From Robinsoniella sp. (lineage in GTDB: Bacteria > Bacillota > Clostridia > Lachnospirales > Lachnospiraceae): DNA of 64,000 nt. The DNA lies in assembly GCA_022788205.1 (NCBI GenBank), contig JALEVQ010000081.1, forward strand, positions 27,278 to 91,277, read 5' to 3'. Under the pieces are notes generated by a model. That model made no database searches, was not told the origin of the DNA, and saw only the letters and a program-made list of their open reading frames with translations. Of this stretch, positions 53,254 through 60,483 are shown piece after piece; positions within the stretch are counted from its first letter, which is position 1; the number at the start of each line of letters is the position of its first letter. The translations under genes and the position numbers were made by a program.

Positions 53254-54744
53254 TTAAATGAATTTCTGTTTTTTCACCGTCTGTACAAACTCCTGATTGT
53301 TCTTTGTCCTCGTGAACAAATTCAGAATATTCTCCACCGCCTCATCCGATTTCATGCCATTTAAGGCTTTCCTCATGATATAGACAGCCTCCAGTTCCTC
53401 GGAATCCAGGAGCAGATCTTCCCTTCTCGTGCTCGATTTCTGAATATCGATTGCCGGGAACACACGCTTTTCCGACAGCTTTCTATCCAGAACAAGCTCC
53501 ATATTTCCCGTTCCTTTGAATTCCTCGTAGATCACGTCATCCATCTTACTTCCTGTATCGATGAGTGCTGACGCTAAAATCGTCAGGCTCCCGCCCTCTC
53601 TCATATTGCGCGCCGCACCGAAAAACCGTTTCGGCATATGGAGCGCCGCCGGGTCAAGACCACCCGACAATGTTCGTCCACTCGGCGGTACAATCAAATT
53701 ATAGGCTCTCGCCAGACGTGTGATACTGTCGAGCAGAATGATCACATCTTTCTGATGCTCCACCAGACGTTTTGCACGCTCCATGACCATCTCAGCCACA
53801 CGTCTGTGGTGTTCTGGCAGCTCATCGAAGGTAGAATAGATAACCTCCACATTGTCACCACAGATTGCCTCCTTGATATCGGTCACTTCCTCTGGACGCT
53901 CATCGATCAGCAAAATGATCAGATGCATCTGCGGATTGTTCTGCTGGATGGATCGCGCGATATCCTTCAAAAGTGTCGTCTTTCCTGCCTTCGGCGGTGA
54001 CACAATCATACCTCTTTGTCCTTTTCCGATCGGCGAAATCAGATCGAGAATCCTCATCGATACTTCCTTTGGACCTCTCTCCATTTTCAGTCTCTTATTC
54101 GGGAAAATCGGTGTCATGTCCTCAAAATTATATCTCTTCATTGCCACAAATGGTGGCATTCCATTGATCGTCTTTAAGTACAGCAAAGCGGAAAACTTTT
54201 CCTGCTGCGTCTTAATCCTGGTGTTTCCGGAAATAATATCGCCGGTCTTTAAATTAAATTTCCTGATCTGTGATGGTGAGACATAGACATCATTGTCACC
54301 TGGCATATAATTCTCACAGCGGATAAATCCATATCCATCTGGCAGAACTTCCAAAATCCCATGTGCTATGATGCCGCTGTCAAGCTGTGATAACTCTCCC
54401 GGAGCCGCTTTGTCATCTCGAAAACGATTCTCCTCTCTTGGGGTTCTTTCTTCCCTGAAACGATTCTCTTCTCTTGACATTTTTTCTTCACGCAGACGAT
54501 AATCGTCCCTCACACCCTTTTCTTCTCTCAGAGGATTTTCTTCGCTCACATTTGTCTCTTCAATCAGAGTACTCTCCTGATCTCCCCTGGAAACCGTTTC
54601 CTGATTTTTTTCCTTCTCATCTTCTGCGAGCATTAATTCTATCAATTCGTTTTTTCTCAGTGCAGAAATGTGTTTTAATCCTCTTGCCTTTGCAATGTCT
54701 CGCAGTGCAACAGCCGATAAAGATTCATACTTTTCTCTTGTCAT
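53254..54744 (-). CDS. rho: transcription termination factor Rho with Arg/Glu-rich N-terminal insertion domain
   Basis: RNA-binding domain, P-loop [11 protein letters not shown] and Q/R loops. An approximately 70-aa insert carries REEKxxRxxxR-like repeats. Confidence 0.85.
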
Positions 54745-55184: not shown

Positions 55185-55565
55185 TTATGATAACATGCCG
55201 CCAATCATTCCCGACCCGGCACATAAAATCAGTGTCGTGAATATATGAAATCCTTCCTGCAGCAAAATACGCCCTGACGCAGCTGAGATCCCCGTCAAAA
55301 TCAGGAAATAGAGAACCCCCACTCCCAATCCCCATAAGTATTTTTTGCTCTCAATTCCTTTTCCTGCGAGAAACCCTCCCACAAATCCGGACACAATATA
55401 GATCACCAAGATTCCCGCTGCCACCTTACTCTCGTCCAGATCCATCTTATAGAGCAAAAGTGCCAGGATCAGGAGCATCACTGCCGTCATGAAATAAGAG
55501 GCAAAGAGCGCCGTCATACAGATAGCCGCCTTTTTTTTCGTCCGCACTGTCTTTCCACCGTCCAT
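55185..55565 (-). CDS. small 4-TM membrane protein (hypothetical)
   Basis: 126 aa and hydrophobic. No recognised motif. Confidence 0.35.
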   Translation of the reverse strand: MDGGKTVRTKKKAAICMTALFASYFMTAVMLLILALLLYKMDLDESKVAAGILVIYIVSGFVGGFLAGKGIESKKYLWGLGVGVLYFLILTGISAASGRILLQEGFHIFTTLILCAGSGMIGGMLS

Positions 55566-57061: not shown

Positions 57062-57087
57062 CACTGGATTCTTTCCATAAAACATAG

Positions 57088-57160
57088 CTGTCCCTTTCTC
57101 CGTTTCGTCGGGCAATCAAATCGCCTGAAAAACAGAGAAAGGGACAGTTTTTTATTTTCT
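57088..57160. terminator. bidirectional terminator (13-bp stem CTGTCCCTTTCTC/GAGAAAGGGACAG, T-run)
   Basis: Lies between the convergent transporter (+) and sigma-like gene (-). Confidence 0.55.
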
Positions 57161-57161
57161 G

Positions 57162-57980
57162 TCATTCTTCCTCATCAAGAAAATTTTCATGTTCATGGTG
57201 ATGCCCGTGATGATGCTCATGATGTTCATTGCCTTCCATCTCAATCTCATCACCTGCCATCCTCAAAATATCCTCGATCTCATCGGTTGGCATCTCTAAA
57301 TATGCTGACAACTCTTCCACTGAGACTTTATGTTCCAGCTCTTCCTCCAGATTGTGAATTGCCTCACTCAGATAATTGACTCGCTCTGCAATCTCCTCGC
57401 CCGCATGGCGACTGTCCCTCTGCATCTCAATCGCTTCCTCAATCGCTCCCCTGATCTGACTTTGCAGAAACATATCTGCCTCCAGGATTCTCGCTGTGCC
57501 ACTGAGACCATCGACTGCCATCATCAGCCCTATATTGCCCTCCTGGATCAAATCTCCAAGCGGCAGCTCTTTTTTCTCGTATTCTTTTGCGATTTTCGCC
57601 ACAATCGGAAGATACATCTCAATCAGCCTTACCTTCGCCATCGCATCTCCCCGCATGACGCTCTGAATCACCTCAATCTTCTCTTCCTGTGAAGCAATCT
57701 GAATATTCTGAAGTTCTTCCTCGTAAAAACTGAGGTATTCCGACTCCTGACCTGCCCACTCTGCGAGATCTTCCTCCAGATTTTCGTGCTGTTCCTCATA
57801 TCCCAGAACCTGAATATTCTGTCCGGCAAGATATTCAAAAATCATCTTCATCTGCTCATCATTAAAATGACTGTCCTGAAAAAAATTCCGCACTTCTTCC
57901 TCTGTCAGTACATTCCCCTTCTGGTCTGCAAGTTCTTTAATCTCCTTTAACATTTCACGAAAAACAAATTTTTCTTTCAT
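57162..57980 (-). CDS. sigma-70-like protein with regions 1.1-2.2 and 3 but no region 4; His-rich C-terminal tail
   Basis: DLIQEGNIGLMMAVD matches sigma region 2.2, but region 2.3/2.4 (YATWWIRQAI) and region 4 are absent. The protein ends HHEHHHGHHHEHENFLDEEE. Confidence 0.5.
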   Translation of the reverse strand: MKEKFVFREMLKEIKELADQKGNVLTEEEVRNFFQDSHFNDEQMKMIFEYLAGQNIQVLGYEEQHENLEEDLAEWAGQESEYLSFYEEELQNIQIASQEEKIEVIQSVMRGDAMAKVRLIEMYLPIVAKIAKEYEKKELPLGDLIQEGNIGLMMAVDGLSGTARILEADMFLQSQIRGAIEEAIEMQRDSRHAGEEIAERVNYLSEAIHNLEEELEHKVSVEELSAYLEMPTDEIEDILRMAGDEIEMEGNEHHEHHHGHHHEHENFLDEEE

Positions 57981-58003
57981 CTTTTATCTCCGTTCCGCCG
58001 CCA

Positions 58004-59224
58004 TTATTGCAGCAAAGATTCGTCTTCTTTCAGTATTGAGATTGCTTTCTGGATCTGGTTATCGTCCTCCATCGGGATGACATTCTGACTCTCCACATCC
58101 TCGTTCAATTCAATCTCCACATCCGGTGTAATTCCTTTTTTGTGGATATCGTTACCGTTTGGCGTATAATATTTTGCTGTTGTCAGTTTCAGCGCGCTGC
58201 CGTCCGAGAGACTGTATGTTGTCTGGACAATCCCTTTTCCATATGTCGTCGTCCCGACAATCGTTCCAACATTGTGATCCTGAATCGCCCCCGCAAAAAT
58301 CTCAGCTGCACTTGCGCTGTCACCGTTCACGAGAACCGCAAGCGGCTTTGTAAACTGGTGCTCCTCATCCGAGGTATACTCTGAACGATTTCCATTCTTA
58401 TCTTCAATATATACCATCAAGCCTTCCGGCAAAATCTGATCAAGAATATCACACACACTTGTAAGCATTCCGCCCGGATTGTCACGCACATCCACGATCA
58501 GTTTTTCCATGCCCTGTTCCTCCAACTCCTCCAGCGCACTCTCAAACTGGCTGACTGTGACAGAGTCAAACTCGATAATCTGGAGATATCCGATCTCATC
58601 ATCCAGCATCTCCTGGTAGACCGTCGGTACTTCCACATTTGTGCGCTCCATCGAGAATGTCAGCAGCTCTGACTCACCTTCCCGCAACACCTTCAGCTCG
58701 ATGATATCCTGTTCTCCTTTTTGGATCACATTCACCACTTCACTCAGCGTCATCTCTTCTGTGCTCTGCCCGTTAATTTCTTTCAAAATATCATTCGGAA
58801 GCATCCCCGCCTTCTCAGCAGGCGCCCCCTCATAACAGCGGATTACTCTGATCTCATTTGTATCAAAATTTTGTGTCATCAACACACCGATTCCCTTGTA
58901 ACTTCCGTTCAGAGAGCGCTGTACGCTCTCCATCTCCTCCACAGTATAGTACGCAGCATAAGGATCCTCCAGTCCTGCCACCAGACCCTTATACATATAG
59001 TTCTCCATCTGTTCCTTGTCCACTTCTTCAAGATTATAGGCATCAATCATCATCTCAATCTCTGCCAATTTATTGACACTCTCCTGCGTAACCGCACTAT
59101 CCCCTGTGTCAGCCGAAGCTTCGCCGCGAATTTTCCCCTTCACGCCCAGCGCCACCACTCCTATAAGCAACATAAACGCCCATCCGCTCAAAAATCCCTT
59201 AAAAAAATGATAATCTTTTTTCAT
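58004..59224 (-). CDS. ctpA: S41 carboxy-terminal processing protease
   Basis: Signal anchor, a PDZ domain, and the GDSASAAEIFAGA and TYGKG motifs. Confidence 0.8.
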   Translation of the reverse strand: MKKDYHFFKGFLSGWAFMLLIGVVALGVKGKIRGEASADTGDSAVTQESVNKLAEIEMMIDAYNLEEVDKEQMENYMYKGLVAGLEDPYAAYYTVEEMESVQRSLNGSYKGIGVLMTQNFDTNEIRVIRCYEGAPAEKAGMLPNDILKEINGQSTEEMTLSEVVNVIQKGEQDIIELKVLREGESELLTFSMERTNVEVPTVYQEMLDDEIGYLQIIEFDSVTVSQFESALEELEEQGMEKLIVDVRDNPGGMLTSVCDILDQILPEGLMVYIEDKNGNRSEYTSDEEHQFTKPLAVLVNGDSASAAEIFAGAIQDHNVGTIVGTTTYGKGIVQTTYSLSDGSALKLTTAKYYTPNGNDIHKKGITPDVEIELNEDVESQNVIPMEDDNQIQKAISILKEDESLLQ

Positions 59225-59403: not shown

Positions 59404-60483
59404 TTAATAATCAAGCGATTCCATATATTTCACAACCATCAAAGCAATCTTAAAGGTGATCGCATCCTCAAACACGCGCAGATCAAGTCCTGTACTCTTT
59501 TGCAGTTTATCAAGGCGATACACCAGTGTATTTCTGTGAATATAAAGCTGACGAGATGTCTCAGAGACATTTAAGCTGTTCTCAAAAAACTTGTTGATCG
59601 TCGTGAGTGTCTCTTCATCGAAGTCATCCGGCGACTTTCCATCAAAGATTTCCCGGATAAACATCTTGCACAGCGGAATCGGCAGCTGGTAAATCAGACG
59701 CCCAATTCCAAGTGAACTATATGCTATCACTTGTCTTTCGTTGAAGAAGATTTTTCCGACATCGAGTGCCATTCTCGCCTCTTTATAGGATTTGGAAACC
59801 TCCTTGATCTCATTTACAATAGTTCCATATGCGATATGAGCATTCTCTTTTCTGTCCGGTGAAAGCACTTCAAAAATGCTGTTTGCTGTCTTATCCATCT
59901 CAGGATATCCTTCTCCCTCTTTTAACTCTTTCACCACGATAATGCTCTTCTCATCGACTGCTGTGATAAAATCCCCTGTCTTTCCGCTGAACAGCGTTCT
60001 CACACTCTCCAGAGAATGCGTGTCTTTCTCATGATTTGTCTCAAGAATGAACACCACACGCCGTGCTTCTGCTTCAATATGCAGTTTTTTGGCTCTGTTA
60101 TAGATATCTACCAGCAGCAGATTATCCAGCAATAAATTTTTGATAAAATTATCTTTGTCAAAGCGCTCTTTATACGCGACCAGCAGATTCTGGATCTGGA
60201 ACACAGCTACTTTTCCAACCATGTAGGAATCATCACTGCTCCCGTTCGCCAGCAGAATATATTCCAGCTGCTGTTCATCAAAGACCTTAAAAAATTGATA
60301 TCCCTGCACTTCCTGGCTGTCTGCCGGAGATTGTACAAAAGAAATGATAGAATCCCGATAGTTCTCTGCCTCCGCGAATGTCGATGCTAGTATATTGCCC
60401 TCGGTGTCCATCACACATAAATCTACTCTCGTGATTACCTTTAAGCCGTCAAGCGTAGTCTGTAAAATTTGATTTGATATCAC
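59404..60483 (-). CDS. PucR/CdaR-family transcriptional regulator
   Basis: GGDEF-like middle domain and a C-terminal HTH, SRQLYIHRNTLVYRLDKL. Confidence 0.65.
   Translation of the reverse strand: MISNQILQTTLDGLKVITRVDLCVMDTEGNILASTFAEAENYRDSIISFVQSPADSQEVQGYQFFKVFDEQQLEYILLANGSSDDSYMVGKVAVFQIQNLLVAYKERFDKDNFIKNLLLDNLLLVDIYNRAKKLHIEAEARRVVFILETNHEKDTHSLESVRTLFSGKTGDFITAVDEKSIIVVKELKEGEGYPEMDKTANSIFEVLSPDRKENAHIAYGTIVNEIKEVSKSYKEARMALDVGKIFFNERQVIAYSSLGIGRLIYQLPIPLCKMFIREIFDGKSPDDFDEETLTTINKFFENSLNVSETSRQLYIHRNTLVYRLDKLQKSTGLDLRVFEDAITFKIALMVVKYMESLDY

What the first reader, a model, noticed from the sequence alone, without database searches (positions are those of the whole stretch)
57162..57980. 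Truncated sigma-70 paralog: regions 1.1-2.2 and 3 retained, promoter-recognition regions missing, polyhistidine tail
The protein parallels SigA through the core-binding helix (DLIQEGNIGLMMAVD). It lacks the -10 recognition element (region 2.3/2.4 aromatic YATWWIRQAI) and all of region 4. It ends in HHEHHHGHHHEHENFLDEEE, a likely metal-binding tail. Such a protein could bind RNAP core without promoter recognition, acting as a sigma competitor or metal-responsive modulator. It is not a standard sigma or anti-sigma annotation.
Basis: seen in the sequence. Interest (0 to 1): 0.55.

Follow-up and report, generated by a model that had tools for sequence, protein, structure and literature searches.

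The report
Conserved sigma-A look-alike lacking promoter-reading parts
This gene encodes a short, very acidic copy of the main bacterial transcription initiation factor. The copy keeps the motif that grips RNA polymerase but has lost everything that reads promoter DNA, and it belongs to a large, uncharacterised protein family found across the gut-bacterial family Lachnospiraceae.

Summary
The ORF at 57162..57980 (-) is real: 272 aa, pI 4.5, with a ribosome-binding site and a strong terminator hairpin. It aligns collinearly with SigA from region 1.1 to the first residues of region 3.2, then stops. There is no sigma finger and no region 4.

The segment has full length, but its melting and -10-recognition residues are replaced by variable or acidic ones.

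The truncation is not an artefact. At least 150 clusters at 50% identity share the same 240-320 aa architecture and the same C-terminal boundary. Members occur in Blautia, Roseburia, Anaerocolumna, Faecalimonas and other Lachnospiraceae. dN/dS is 0.1-0.2, and a full-length SigA coexists in the same genome in Blautia.

The core-binding motif DLIQEGN is invariant in 61/61 members, even at 28% overall identity. The gene neighbourhood varies, and no sigma-4 partner gene lies nearby. The His-rich tail occurs in only 17/142 members, although it recurs in several clades.

Best reading (about 0.5): a "pseudo-sigma" that binds RNA polymerase core without recognising promoters, acting as a competitor or sequestering factor. 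I found no paper on this family, and databases call it only "sigma-70 domain-containing protein".

The parts
57162..57980 (-). CDS of the truncated SigA paralogue ('pseudo-sigma'), 272 aa plus stop codon; pI 4.46, net charge about -45
   Evidence: ORF list; Pfam r1_1, r2 and r3 hits; collinear alignment with solved SigA chains; composition; AF2 model with mean pLDDT 82.8; Foldseek top hits are all sigma factors
57762..57956 (-). Region 1.1-like N-terminal domain (aa 9-73). Unusually well conserved within the family (FREMLSEIKxLAD...GNxLT...YEYL)
   Evidence: Pfam PF03979, E=6.4e-7, above the gathering score; family alignment A1; AF2 pLDDT 86-92 over aa 10-60
57501..57734 (-). Region 1.2-like remnant plus regions 2.1-2.2 (aa 83-160)
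   Evidence: Alignments with SigA. The Pfam r1_2 model does not hit; the r2 model matches only profile positions 1-42 of 71
57534..57554 (-). DLIQEGN (aa 143-149), the region 2.2 core-binding motif that contacts the beta' coiled-coil
   Evidence: Read directly from the sequence; invariant in 61/61 family members down to 28% overall identity; residue roles from the literature
57387..57500 (-). Degenerate region 2.3-2.4 (aa 161-198). Full length is retained, but the aromatic melting residues and the -10/-12 recognition residues are lost. Net charge is -2 to -4, against +5 in the same segment of SigA
57231..57386 (-). Sigma-3 domain (regions 3.0-3.1, aa 199-250). The most conserved block of the family (RVNHLNEAIxNLExDLEHKVSxEELSAYLEMPxEEIxDILRMAGDEIE). 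The extended -10 residue H455 is not conserved
   Evidence: Pfam PF04539 matches profile positions 1-44 of 78; alignments; residue table
57165..57230 (-). His- and acid-rich disordered tail NEHHEHHHGHHHEHENFLDEEE (aa 251-272). It occupies the position and roughly the length of the SigA region 3.2 finger. Lineage-specific
   Evidence: 17/142 members have at least 3 His; AF2 pLDDT 41-59 over the last four 10-residue blocks; only His-rich run in a real ORF of the window
57988..57991 (-). Shine-Dalgarno GGAG, 7 nt upstream of the ATG. The gap to the stop codon of the upstream peptidase gene is 23 nt, which suggests co-transcription
   Evidence: Read directly from the sequence; ORF coordinates
57089..57147 (.). 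Long GC-rich hairpin between the convergent pseudo-sigma and CNNM/CorC genes. Probably a bidirectional terminator
   Evidence: RNA fold of 57062-57165 (-): -42.5 kcal/mol, z = -7.6 against shuffles
58004..59224 (-). Upstream co-oriented gene: S41 (CtpA/CtpB-like) PDZ peptidase. A neighbour only in the query's sub-clade
   Evidence: Pfam; synteny in L001-L006, L010-L013, L015-L017 and L019, but not in L007, L014, L018 or L020-L033
59404..60483 (-). PucR-family regulator at the head of the same gene string. Context only
   Evidence: Pfam HTH_30 + GGDEF_2; 77-81% identity in the related loci that carry it

Best explanation
The gene encodes a 'pseudo-sigma': a paralogue descended from the primary sigma factor SigA. 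It keeps the sigma 1.1, sigma 2 and sigma 3 domains, including an invariant region 2.2 motif for the beta' clamp helices. It has lost the DNA-melting, -10, extended -10 and -35 determinants, together with the 3.2 finger and sigma 4.

The most likely mechanism is that it docks on RNA polymerase core at the sigma-2 site. Its acidic 1.1 domain and acidic sigma 3 would lie in or near the DNA channel. It cannot open or recognise promoters. It would therefore compete with real sigma factors and/or hold core in a DNA-free, inactive or recyclable state.

Shown: the architecture, the conservation pattern, purifying selection, coexistence with a full SigA in Blautia, and the absence of a nearby sigma-4 partner.
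Inferred: binding to core, competition with sigma factors, and any physiological role.

The His-rich tail of this particular lineage is an add-on that may bind Ni, Zn or Co. It is not needed for the family's core function.
For: 1. Homology and architecture. Pfam r1_1, r2 and r3 hit, but r4 does not. Partial hits to the RpoD/RpoS NCBIfam models cover only the N-terminal two thirds. The alignment with solved SigA chains is collinear from region 1.1 to the start of 3.2. The AF2 model is confident and its fold matches are all sigma factors.
2. Selective retention. D403, L404, Q406, E407 and N409 (E. coli numbering) are 100% (98% for L404) conserved in 61 members. Y425, Y430, W433, W434, R436, Q437, T440, R441, R451 and H455 are unconserved. 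Positions 440, 441 and 451 are mostly Glu or Asp. Net charge of segment 2.3-2.4 averages -3.4 in the family against +5 in SigA.
3. A real, selected gene. dN/dS is 0.09-0.20. There are 576 homologues, and the 120 listed are 229-323 aa. 511 clusters at 50% identity reach E<=1e-30, and the best 150 are all 158-339 aa, with the profile matched to its end. The C-terminal boundary ...MAGDEIExEG is shared.
4. Not a replacement for SigA. Blautia locus L022 carries the truncated gene, then dnaG, then a 374-aa SigA with all regions.
5. Stand-alone. The neighbours differ between clades: S41 peptidase, AP endonuclease, Xth, Fe-ADH, MatE, RecG, DUF3810. No sigma-4-like ORF is found in the window.
Against: - No experiment or complex model shows binding to RNAP.
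- Without the 3.2 finger and sigma 4, affinity for core should be well below that of SigA, so effective competition would need high expression or extra contacts.
- Region 2.2 is also part of the surface that many anti-sigma factors cover, so its invariance could reflect a different partner.
- The very strong family-specific conservation of sigma 3.1 and of the 1.1-like domain is not explained by simple competition. It hints at a further, unknown interaction.
- No conserved neighbour gene points to a pathway.
Confidence: 0.5

Rival explanations
1. Sigma decoy (partner-switch logic, as in PhyR). The protein mimics free SigA and titrates a factor that normally binds sigma 1.1, sigma 2 or sigma 3 of SigA, such as an unknown anti-sigma-A, a phage-encoded inhibitor or a protease adaptor. 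This would protect or release SigA.
For: DNA-binding residues are lost while the protein-protein surfaces are kept. The sigma 3.1 and 1.1 blocks are much more conserved than in real SigA proteins. Sigma mimicry by a degenerate sigma-like domain has a precedent (PhyR; PMC8103513).
Against: In PhyR the core-binding region is degenerate too, whereas here it is invariant. No candidate anti-sigma gene is linked in any of the roughly 10 neighbourhood types seen. To my knowledge no anti-sigma-A is known in Clostridia.
Confidence: 0.15
2. One half of a split sigma factor. The protein supplies sigma 2 and sigma 3, and a separately encoded sigma-4 protein supplies -35 recognition, as in SigO-RsoA of B. 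subtilis.
For: Two-subunit sigma factors exist (PMC8103513). The architecture is exactly 'everything except 3.2 and 4'.
Against: SigO and RsoA are described as activating a shared yvrI-yvrHa operon. Here no sigma-4-like ORF lies next to the gene in any context, and none is found in the 64-kb window. The -10 and melting residues needed by any functional sigma 2 are gone and replaced by acidic residues.
Confidence: 0.08
3. A minimal but genuine sigma factor. Like phage T4 gp55, it would recognise an unusual -10-like element using sigma 2 and sigma 3 alone.
For: Sigma 2 alone can suffice for promoter recognition in some systems (T4 gp55; from my own knowledge, not tested here). The sigma 3 helix-turn-helix is strongly conserved.
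Against: The would-be DNA-reading helix 2.3-2.4 is the least conserved part of the protein and is net negative. All melting aromatics are missing. Overall family charge runs from -13 to -53.
Confidence: 0.07
4. A decaying pseudogene, a frameshifted gene, or an interrupted sigma gene that is rejoined by DNA rearrangement (like sigK split by the skin element).
For: Read alone, the ORF looks like a sigA cut after region 3.1.
Against: dN/dS is 0.1-0.2. The end point is identical in hundreds of diverged homologues that sit in different genomic contexts. A terminator follows the stop codon directly. No region 4 coding potential is found anywhere in the window.
Confidence: 0.02

Closest known systems
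Primary (group 1) sigma factor SigA/RpoD of Firmicutes
   Same: Clear homology and collinearity from region 1.1 through region 3.1. The DLIQEGN core-binding motif is identical. There is a Firmicutes-type short 1.1 domain and no large non-conserved insertion. In Blautia the gene lies in the dnaG-sigA neighbourhood, which is consistent with origin by duplication of sigA.
   Different: There is no 3.2 finger and no region 4. The Pfam region 1.2 model does not hit. The melting, -10 and extended -10 residues are lost. Scores are far below the NCBIfam RpoD cutoff (81 against 572 bits). The protein is much more acidic in the 2.1-2.4 segments.
PhyR sigma-like domain (sigma-factor mimicry in the alphaproteobacterial general stress response)
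   Same: A sigma-derived domain that no longer binds promoters and acts through protein-protein interaction. This is the only established class of 'sigma look-alike regulator'.
   Different: PhyR derives from an ECF sigma (sigma 2 plus sigma 4), is fused to a receiver domain, has a degenerate core-binding region, and has a linked anti-sigma partner, NepR. Here the parent is a group 1 sigma, there is no receiver domain, sigma 4 is absent, the core-binding motif is invariant, and there is no linked partner.
[quoted passage not shown]
   Same: A sigma-2-containing polypeptide that lacks sigma 4.
   Different: RsoA works with the sigma-4 protein SigO; the two are described as activating a shared yvrI-yvrHa operon, and together they initiate transcription. 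Here no partner gene is adjacent and the DNA-melting determinants are lost.
RNAP-binding acidic accessory factors of Firmicutes (delta subunit RpoE; functional analogy only, from my own knowledge)
   Same: A folded N-terminal part plus a strongly acidic, partly disordered C-terminus. A possible role is keeping nucleic acid out of RNAP and so affecting recycling or selectivity.
   Different: There is no sequence or fold relationship. The delta subunit binds elsewhere on RNAP. The analogy was not tested here.

Membership tests
Functional sigma-70-family sigma factor | Sigma 2 domain with the region 2.2 core-binding motif | tested here: met
   DLIQEGN at aa 143-149; Pfam Sigma70_r2 26.6 bits against a 24 cutoff; invariant across the family
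Functional sigma-70-family sigma factor | Region 2.3/2.4 aromatic and polar residues for DNA melting and -10 recognition (Y425, Y430, W433, W434, Q437, T440, R441) | tested here: not met
   The query has I, F, S, Q, G, E and E at these positions. The family shows no conservation there, and acidic residues dominate at positions 440 and 441. The Pfam r2 match stops at profile position 42 of 71
Functional sigma-70-family sigma factor | Region 4 (sigma 4) helix-turn-helix for the -35 element and beta-flap binding | tested here: not met
   No Pfam r4 or r4_2 hit. The protein ends at the start of region 3.2. No region 4 is found elsewhere in the window. None of the best 150 family representatives is long enough to hold one
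Group 1 primary sigma (RpoD/SigA) | Region 1.1 present | tested here: met
   PF03979, 29.7 bits against a 22.5 cutoff, aa 9-73
Group 1 primary sigma (RpoD/SigA) | Region 1.2 consensus, and a full-length match to the RpoD equivalog models | tested here: not met
   No PF00140 hit. DPVRMYLKEIG corresponds to EYLSFYEEELQ. NF006666 scores 81 bits against a 572 cutoff
PhyR-type sigma mimic (anti-anti-sigma) | ECF-like sigma 2 + sigma 4 domain fused to a receiver domain, with a linked NepR-type anti-sigma | tested here: not met
   No receiver domain. The best matches are group 1 and group 2 sigma factors. No small anti-sigma-like neighbour is conserved
Split sigma (SigO-RsoA type) | Adjacent or co-occurring gene for a sigma-4-only partner | tested here: not met
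   Neighbours were annotated in the window and in L001-L009, L021, L022, L024, L028, L029 and L031, and none has Sigma70_r4 apart from bona fide SigE and SigA in L022. tblastn in the window was negative. Genome-wide co-occurrence could not be tested
MzaA (sigma factor associated with the MZA anti-phage system) | Full-length match to the MzaA model | tested here: not met
   NF041931 scores 52.5 bits against an 800 cutoff. The PADLOC MzaA match is 22.8 bits over 70 residues only
RNAP-core-binding protein (functional class) | Physical binding to the beta' coiled-coil or to RNAP core | not testable with these tools
   Supported only indirectly, by the invariance of the binding motif

The most novel reading that the evidence does not exclude
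Lachnospiraceae carry a dedicated, previously unrecognised RNA polymerase regulator that evolved from SigA. In this reading the 'pseudo-sigma' clamps onto the beta' coiled-coil through its invariant region 2.2 and plugs the DNA channel with its conserved acidic 1.1 domain. That would give a protein-based way to sequester or hibernate core RNAP, or to tune sigma competition. Because it lacks the 3.2 finger and sigma 4, the two parts that nascent RNA must displace, it could even ride on elongating RNAP and compete with NusG for the clamp helices. In some lineages a His/Cys-rich tail replaces the sigma finger at exactly that position, which could make the interaction metal-dependent.
Probability: 0.2. 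Interest if true: 0.8.

Novelty: new variant of a known kind. Interest (0 to 1): 0.6.

Why it matters
Sigma competition and RNAP sequestration are central to bacterial global regulation. The known players are RNAs (6S), anti-sigma factors and small RNAP-binding proteins. A widespread, selected SigA paralogue that keeps only the polymerase-gripping parts would be a new type of player.

It occurs in one of the most abundant bacterial families of the human gut, where transcription regulation is barely studied. It would also be a natural 'separation-of-function' sigma for studying what sigma 1.1, sigma 2 and sigma 3 do on core without promoter binding. Annotation pipelines currently call it 'sigma factor', 'primary sigma factor' or 'hypothetical protein', which misleads regulon predictions.

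Tried and rejected
- Frameshift or assembly error: rejected.
- Region 2.3/2.4 deleted: rejected. The segment is present but degenerate.
- Conserved operon partner: sought in about 30 loci. S41 peptidase plus a PucR regulator is linked only in the query's sub-clade. Elsewhere the upstream gene is an AP endonuclease, Xth, Fe-ADH or another gene. DUF3792 and CNNM recur, but not universally. No functional lead resulted.
- Link between the His tail and the convergent CNNM/CorC metal-transporter gene: rejected. L014, L018 and L023 have the CNNM neighbour but no His tail.
- Phage, plasmid or defence origin: PADLOC and PHROGs give only generic sigma similarity. Phage and plasmid collections give only weak (at most 34% identity) matches to ordinary sigma factors.
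- Literature: six of the seven full-text searches looked for this family or its neighbour domain (truncated sigma, lacking region 4, Lachnospiraceae sigma paralogue, pseudo-sigma or sigma mimic, DUF3792, SigO-RsoA). None found a paper on it; the seventh only retrieved residue roles.
- The simple promoter scan was uninformative: 8 sites found against 6.2 expected.
- The AFDB fold library was unavailable.
- dN/dS from near-identical loci had too few differences, so more diverged pairs were used.

Full report
**The object**

The minus-strand ORF at 57162..57980 encodes 272 aa. A GGAG ribosome-binding site lies 7 nt upstream of the ATG. The upstream S41-peptidase gene ends 23 nt before the start. 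A hairpin of -42.5 kcal/mol (z = -7.6) follows the stop codon and is shared with the convergent CNNM/CorC gene. The protein is extremely acidic: pI 4.46, with 68 Asp+Glu against 23 Lys+Arg.

**Checking the observation**

- Pfam finds Sigma70_r1_1 (aa 9-73), the first 42 of 71 positions of Sigma70_r2 (aa 119-160), and the first 44 of 78 positions of Sigma70_r3 (aa 199-242). It finds no region 4 and no region 1.2.
- NCBIfam RpoD, RpoS and SigA models match at E = 1e-23 to 1e-12, but far below their cutoffs. For example, NF006666 scores 81 bits against a 572 cutoff.
- phmmer against PDB sequences aligns the protein collinearly with S. aureus SigA (aa 9-260 against 21-277). C. difficile and B. subtilis SigA align in the same way.
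- That alignment has only a one-residue gap across region 2.3/2.4. The helix is there, but YATWWIRQAITRAI has become DMFLQSQIRGAIEEAI.
- The protein ends at ...ILRMAGDEIEMEG, which matches SigA ...ILKISQEPVSLET. That is the first residues of region 3.2. A 22-aa His- and acid-rich tail follows.
- An AF2 model built on a 40-sequence alignment is confident (mean pLDDT 82.8). It shows a 1.1-like domain, the sigma 2 helices, a sigma 3 helix bundle and a disordered tail. Its 50 best Foldseek matches in the PDB are all sigma factors.

**Not an artefact**

- tblastn with a SigA region 4 finds nothing in the 64-kb window.
- A 99%-identical protein from an independent assembly has the same end.
- Of 576 homologues, the 120 listed are 229-323 aa, and nearly all end at ...MAGDEIExEG plus a few residues.
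- A profile search of 1.84 billion representatives gives 511 clusters at E<=1e-30. The best 150 are all 158-339 aa and match the profile to its end.
- A second search, started from a Roseburia member, finds another 130 proteins; the 120 listed are 161-283 aa, most of them 245-283 aa.
- dN/dS between orthologues is 0.09-0.20. For the best pair, L015/L016, dS is 0.63 and dN is 0.12.

**Distribution and context**

- A scan of species-representative genomes finds members in Lachnospiraceae MAGs and isolates. These include Choladousia, Galacturonibacter, Faecalimonas, Anaerocolumna (a complete genome), Blautia, Roseburia and Eubacterium. All are 244-301 aa and stop after region 3.1.
- In Blautia locus L022 the gene order is ftsZ-spoIIGA-sigE-xth-[truncated sigma]-dnaG-sigA-trmK. 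The sigA there is a normal 374-aa protein with regions 1.1, 1.2, 2, 3 and 4. The paralogue therefore coexists with SigA and may have arisen by duplication next to it.
- The neighbourhood is otherwise not conserved. PucR regulator-S41 peptidase lies upstream only in the query's sub-clade (L001-L006, L010-L013, L015-L017, L019).
- Upstream in other clades are an AP endonuclease (L007), Xth (L022), Fe-ADH (L024, L031) and unannotated genes on the opposite strand (L028, L029); the response regulator next to the L021 gene is also on the opposite strand. Downstream are MatE, RecG, DUF3810, a small RelA/SpoT synthetase, transketolase, CNNM or DUF3792.
- No sigma-4-only gene is adjacent anywhere.
- Source names are only 'hypothetical protein', 'sigma factor', 'sigma-70 domain-containing protein' or, from JGI's automatic annotation, 'primary sigma factor'.

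**What is kept and what is lost**

I aligned 61 family members with the Blautia SigA and mapped E. coli numbering onto the alignment.

- Kept: D403, Q406, E407 and N409 are invariant in 61/61, and L404 in 60/61. The whole DLIQEGN string is unchanged even in members only 28% identical overall. These are the region 2.2 residues reported to bind the beta' coiled-coil. Substitutions L402F, E407K and N409D weaken the sigma-core interaction (10.1101/2020.09.07.285775 and PMC3326312).
- Lost: Y425, Y430, W433 and W434 (melting), Q437, T440 and R441 (-12/-10), R451, and H455 and E458 (extended -10) show no conservation. Positions 440, 441 and 451 are mostly Glu or Asp.
- Charge: segment 2.1-2.2 averages -3.9 in the family against +4 in SigA. 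Segment 2.3-2.4 averages -3.4 against +5.
- Family-specific conservation is strongest in two blocks. One is the 1.1-like N-terminus (FREMLSEIKxLAD..GNxLT...YEYL). The other is sigma 3.0-3.1 (RVNHLNEAIxNLExDLEHKVSxEELSAYLEMPxEEIxDILRMAGDEIE). Both are more conserved than in genuine SigA proteins, and this remains unexplained.

**The His tail**

Counting residues after the conserved MAG, 17 of 142 members have at least 3 His. These include all 9 members of the query's cluster. The others are scattered: P0018, P0024, P0060, the P0045/P0082/P0103 group (up to 21 His, some with Cys), and the two Anaerocolumna proteins. They fall in 7 of 36 clusters at 60% identity, and the median tail is 11 aa. The tail is thus recurrent but lineage-specific. 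It is the only His-rich run in a real ORF of this window. Its position and length (22 aa) correspond to the SigA 3.2 finger. This correspondence is suggestive only.

**Interpretation**

- The pattern is an invariant polymerase-binding motif, retained 1.1 and sigma 3 domains, loss and acidification of every DNA-reading surface, and no finger or sigma 4. It fits best a protein that binds RNAP core at the sigma 2 site without recognising promoters, that is, a competitor or sequestering 'pseudo-sigma' (confidence about 0.5). All binding steps are inferred.
- A PhyR-like decoy for an unknown SigA-binding factor is the main rival (0.15). PhyR's core-binding region is degenerate (PMC8103513), whereas this one is invariant, and no partner gene is linked.
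- A split sigma like SigO-RsoA (0.08) and a gp55-like minimal sigma (0.07) are disfavoured. There is no adjacent sigma 4 gene, and helix 2.3-2.4 is acidic and unconserved.
- The conservation data exclude a pseudogene or an interrupted gene.

**Novelty**

Six full-text searches for this family or its neighbour domain found no paper on it. No curated model is specific to it. It is a member of the sigma-70 superfamily by descent, but it fails three defining features of a working sigma factor. I therefore rate it a new variant of a known kind. It is moderately to highly interesting because it is widespread in a dominant gut family and directly testable.

**Numbering note**

Alignment A1 and the AF2 model lack Met1, so their positions equal the protein position minus 1.

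Noticed in passing
window 53254-54744 (-), repeats at 54422-54550: The Rho gene carries a long Arg/Glu-rich insertion after its N-terminal domain. The insertion contains 36-nt (12-aa) tandem repeats (...[41 protein letters not shown]...). Homologues in related loci vary in length (448-496 aa).
   Followed up: no
window 22440-22632 (-): A cobalamin riboswitch (Rfam RF00174, 93.7 bits) lies upstream of the 507-aa ORF at 20657..22180 (-).
   Followed up: no
window 31362-31568: A 78-nt tandem repeat, 2.7 copies at 85% match, lies at the end of ORF 31355..32695 (-).
   Followed up: no
window 55185-55565 (-); L007 6843-7217; L012 about 4912-5169: A small DUF3792 membrane-protein gene recurs close to the pseudo-sigma gene. 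It is directly downstream in L007, L008 and L012, and one gene away in the window, L001 and L004. In L007 it is followed by SCIFF, its radical-SAM maturase, recJ, apt and relA. The association is not universal.
   Followed up: partly
L022 3983-7867: In a Blautia genome the truncated sigma gene sits immediately upstream of dnaG-sigA and downstream of spoIIGA-sigE-xth. This suggests origin by duplication of sigA, or a link to the macromolecular-synthesis operon.
   Followed up: partly
window 59404-60483 (-): The PucR-family regulator at the head of the gene string is 77-81% identical in related loci where the S41 peptidase is only 38-52% identical and the pseudo-sigma only 38-48%. It is therefore under much stronger constraint than its neighbours.
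   Followed up: no
phage collection hits H1-H3, H5 (MT837372.1 etc.): Several unannotated 'Bacteriophage sp.' records from human faeces encode 24-32% identical matches that cover most of the query. H1-H3 are 5-7 kb; H5 is 89 kb. They may be mis-binned Lachnospiraceae fragments or phage-borne sigma-like genes.
   Followed up: no
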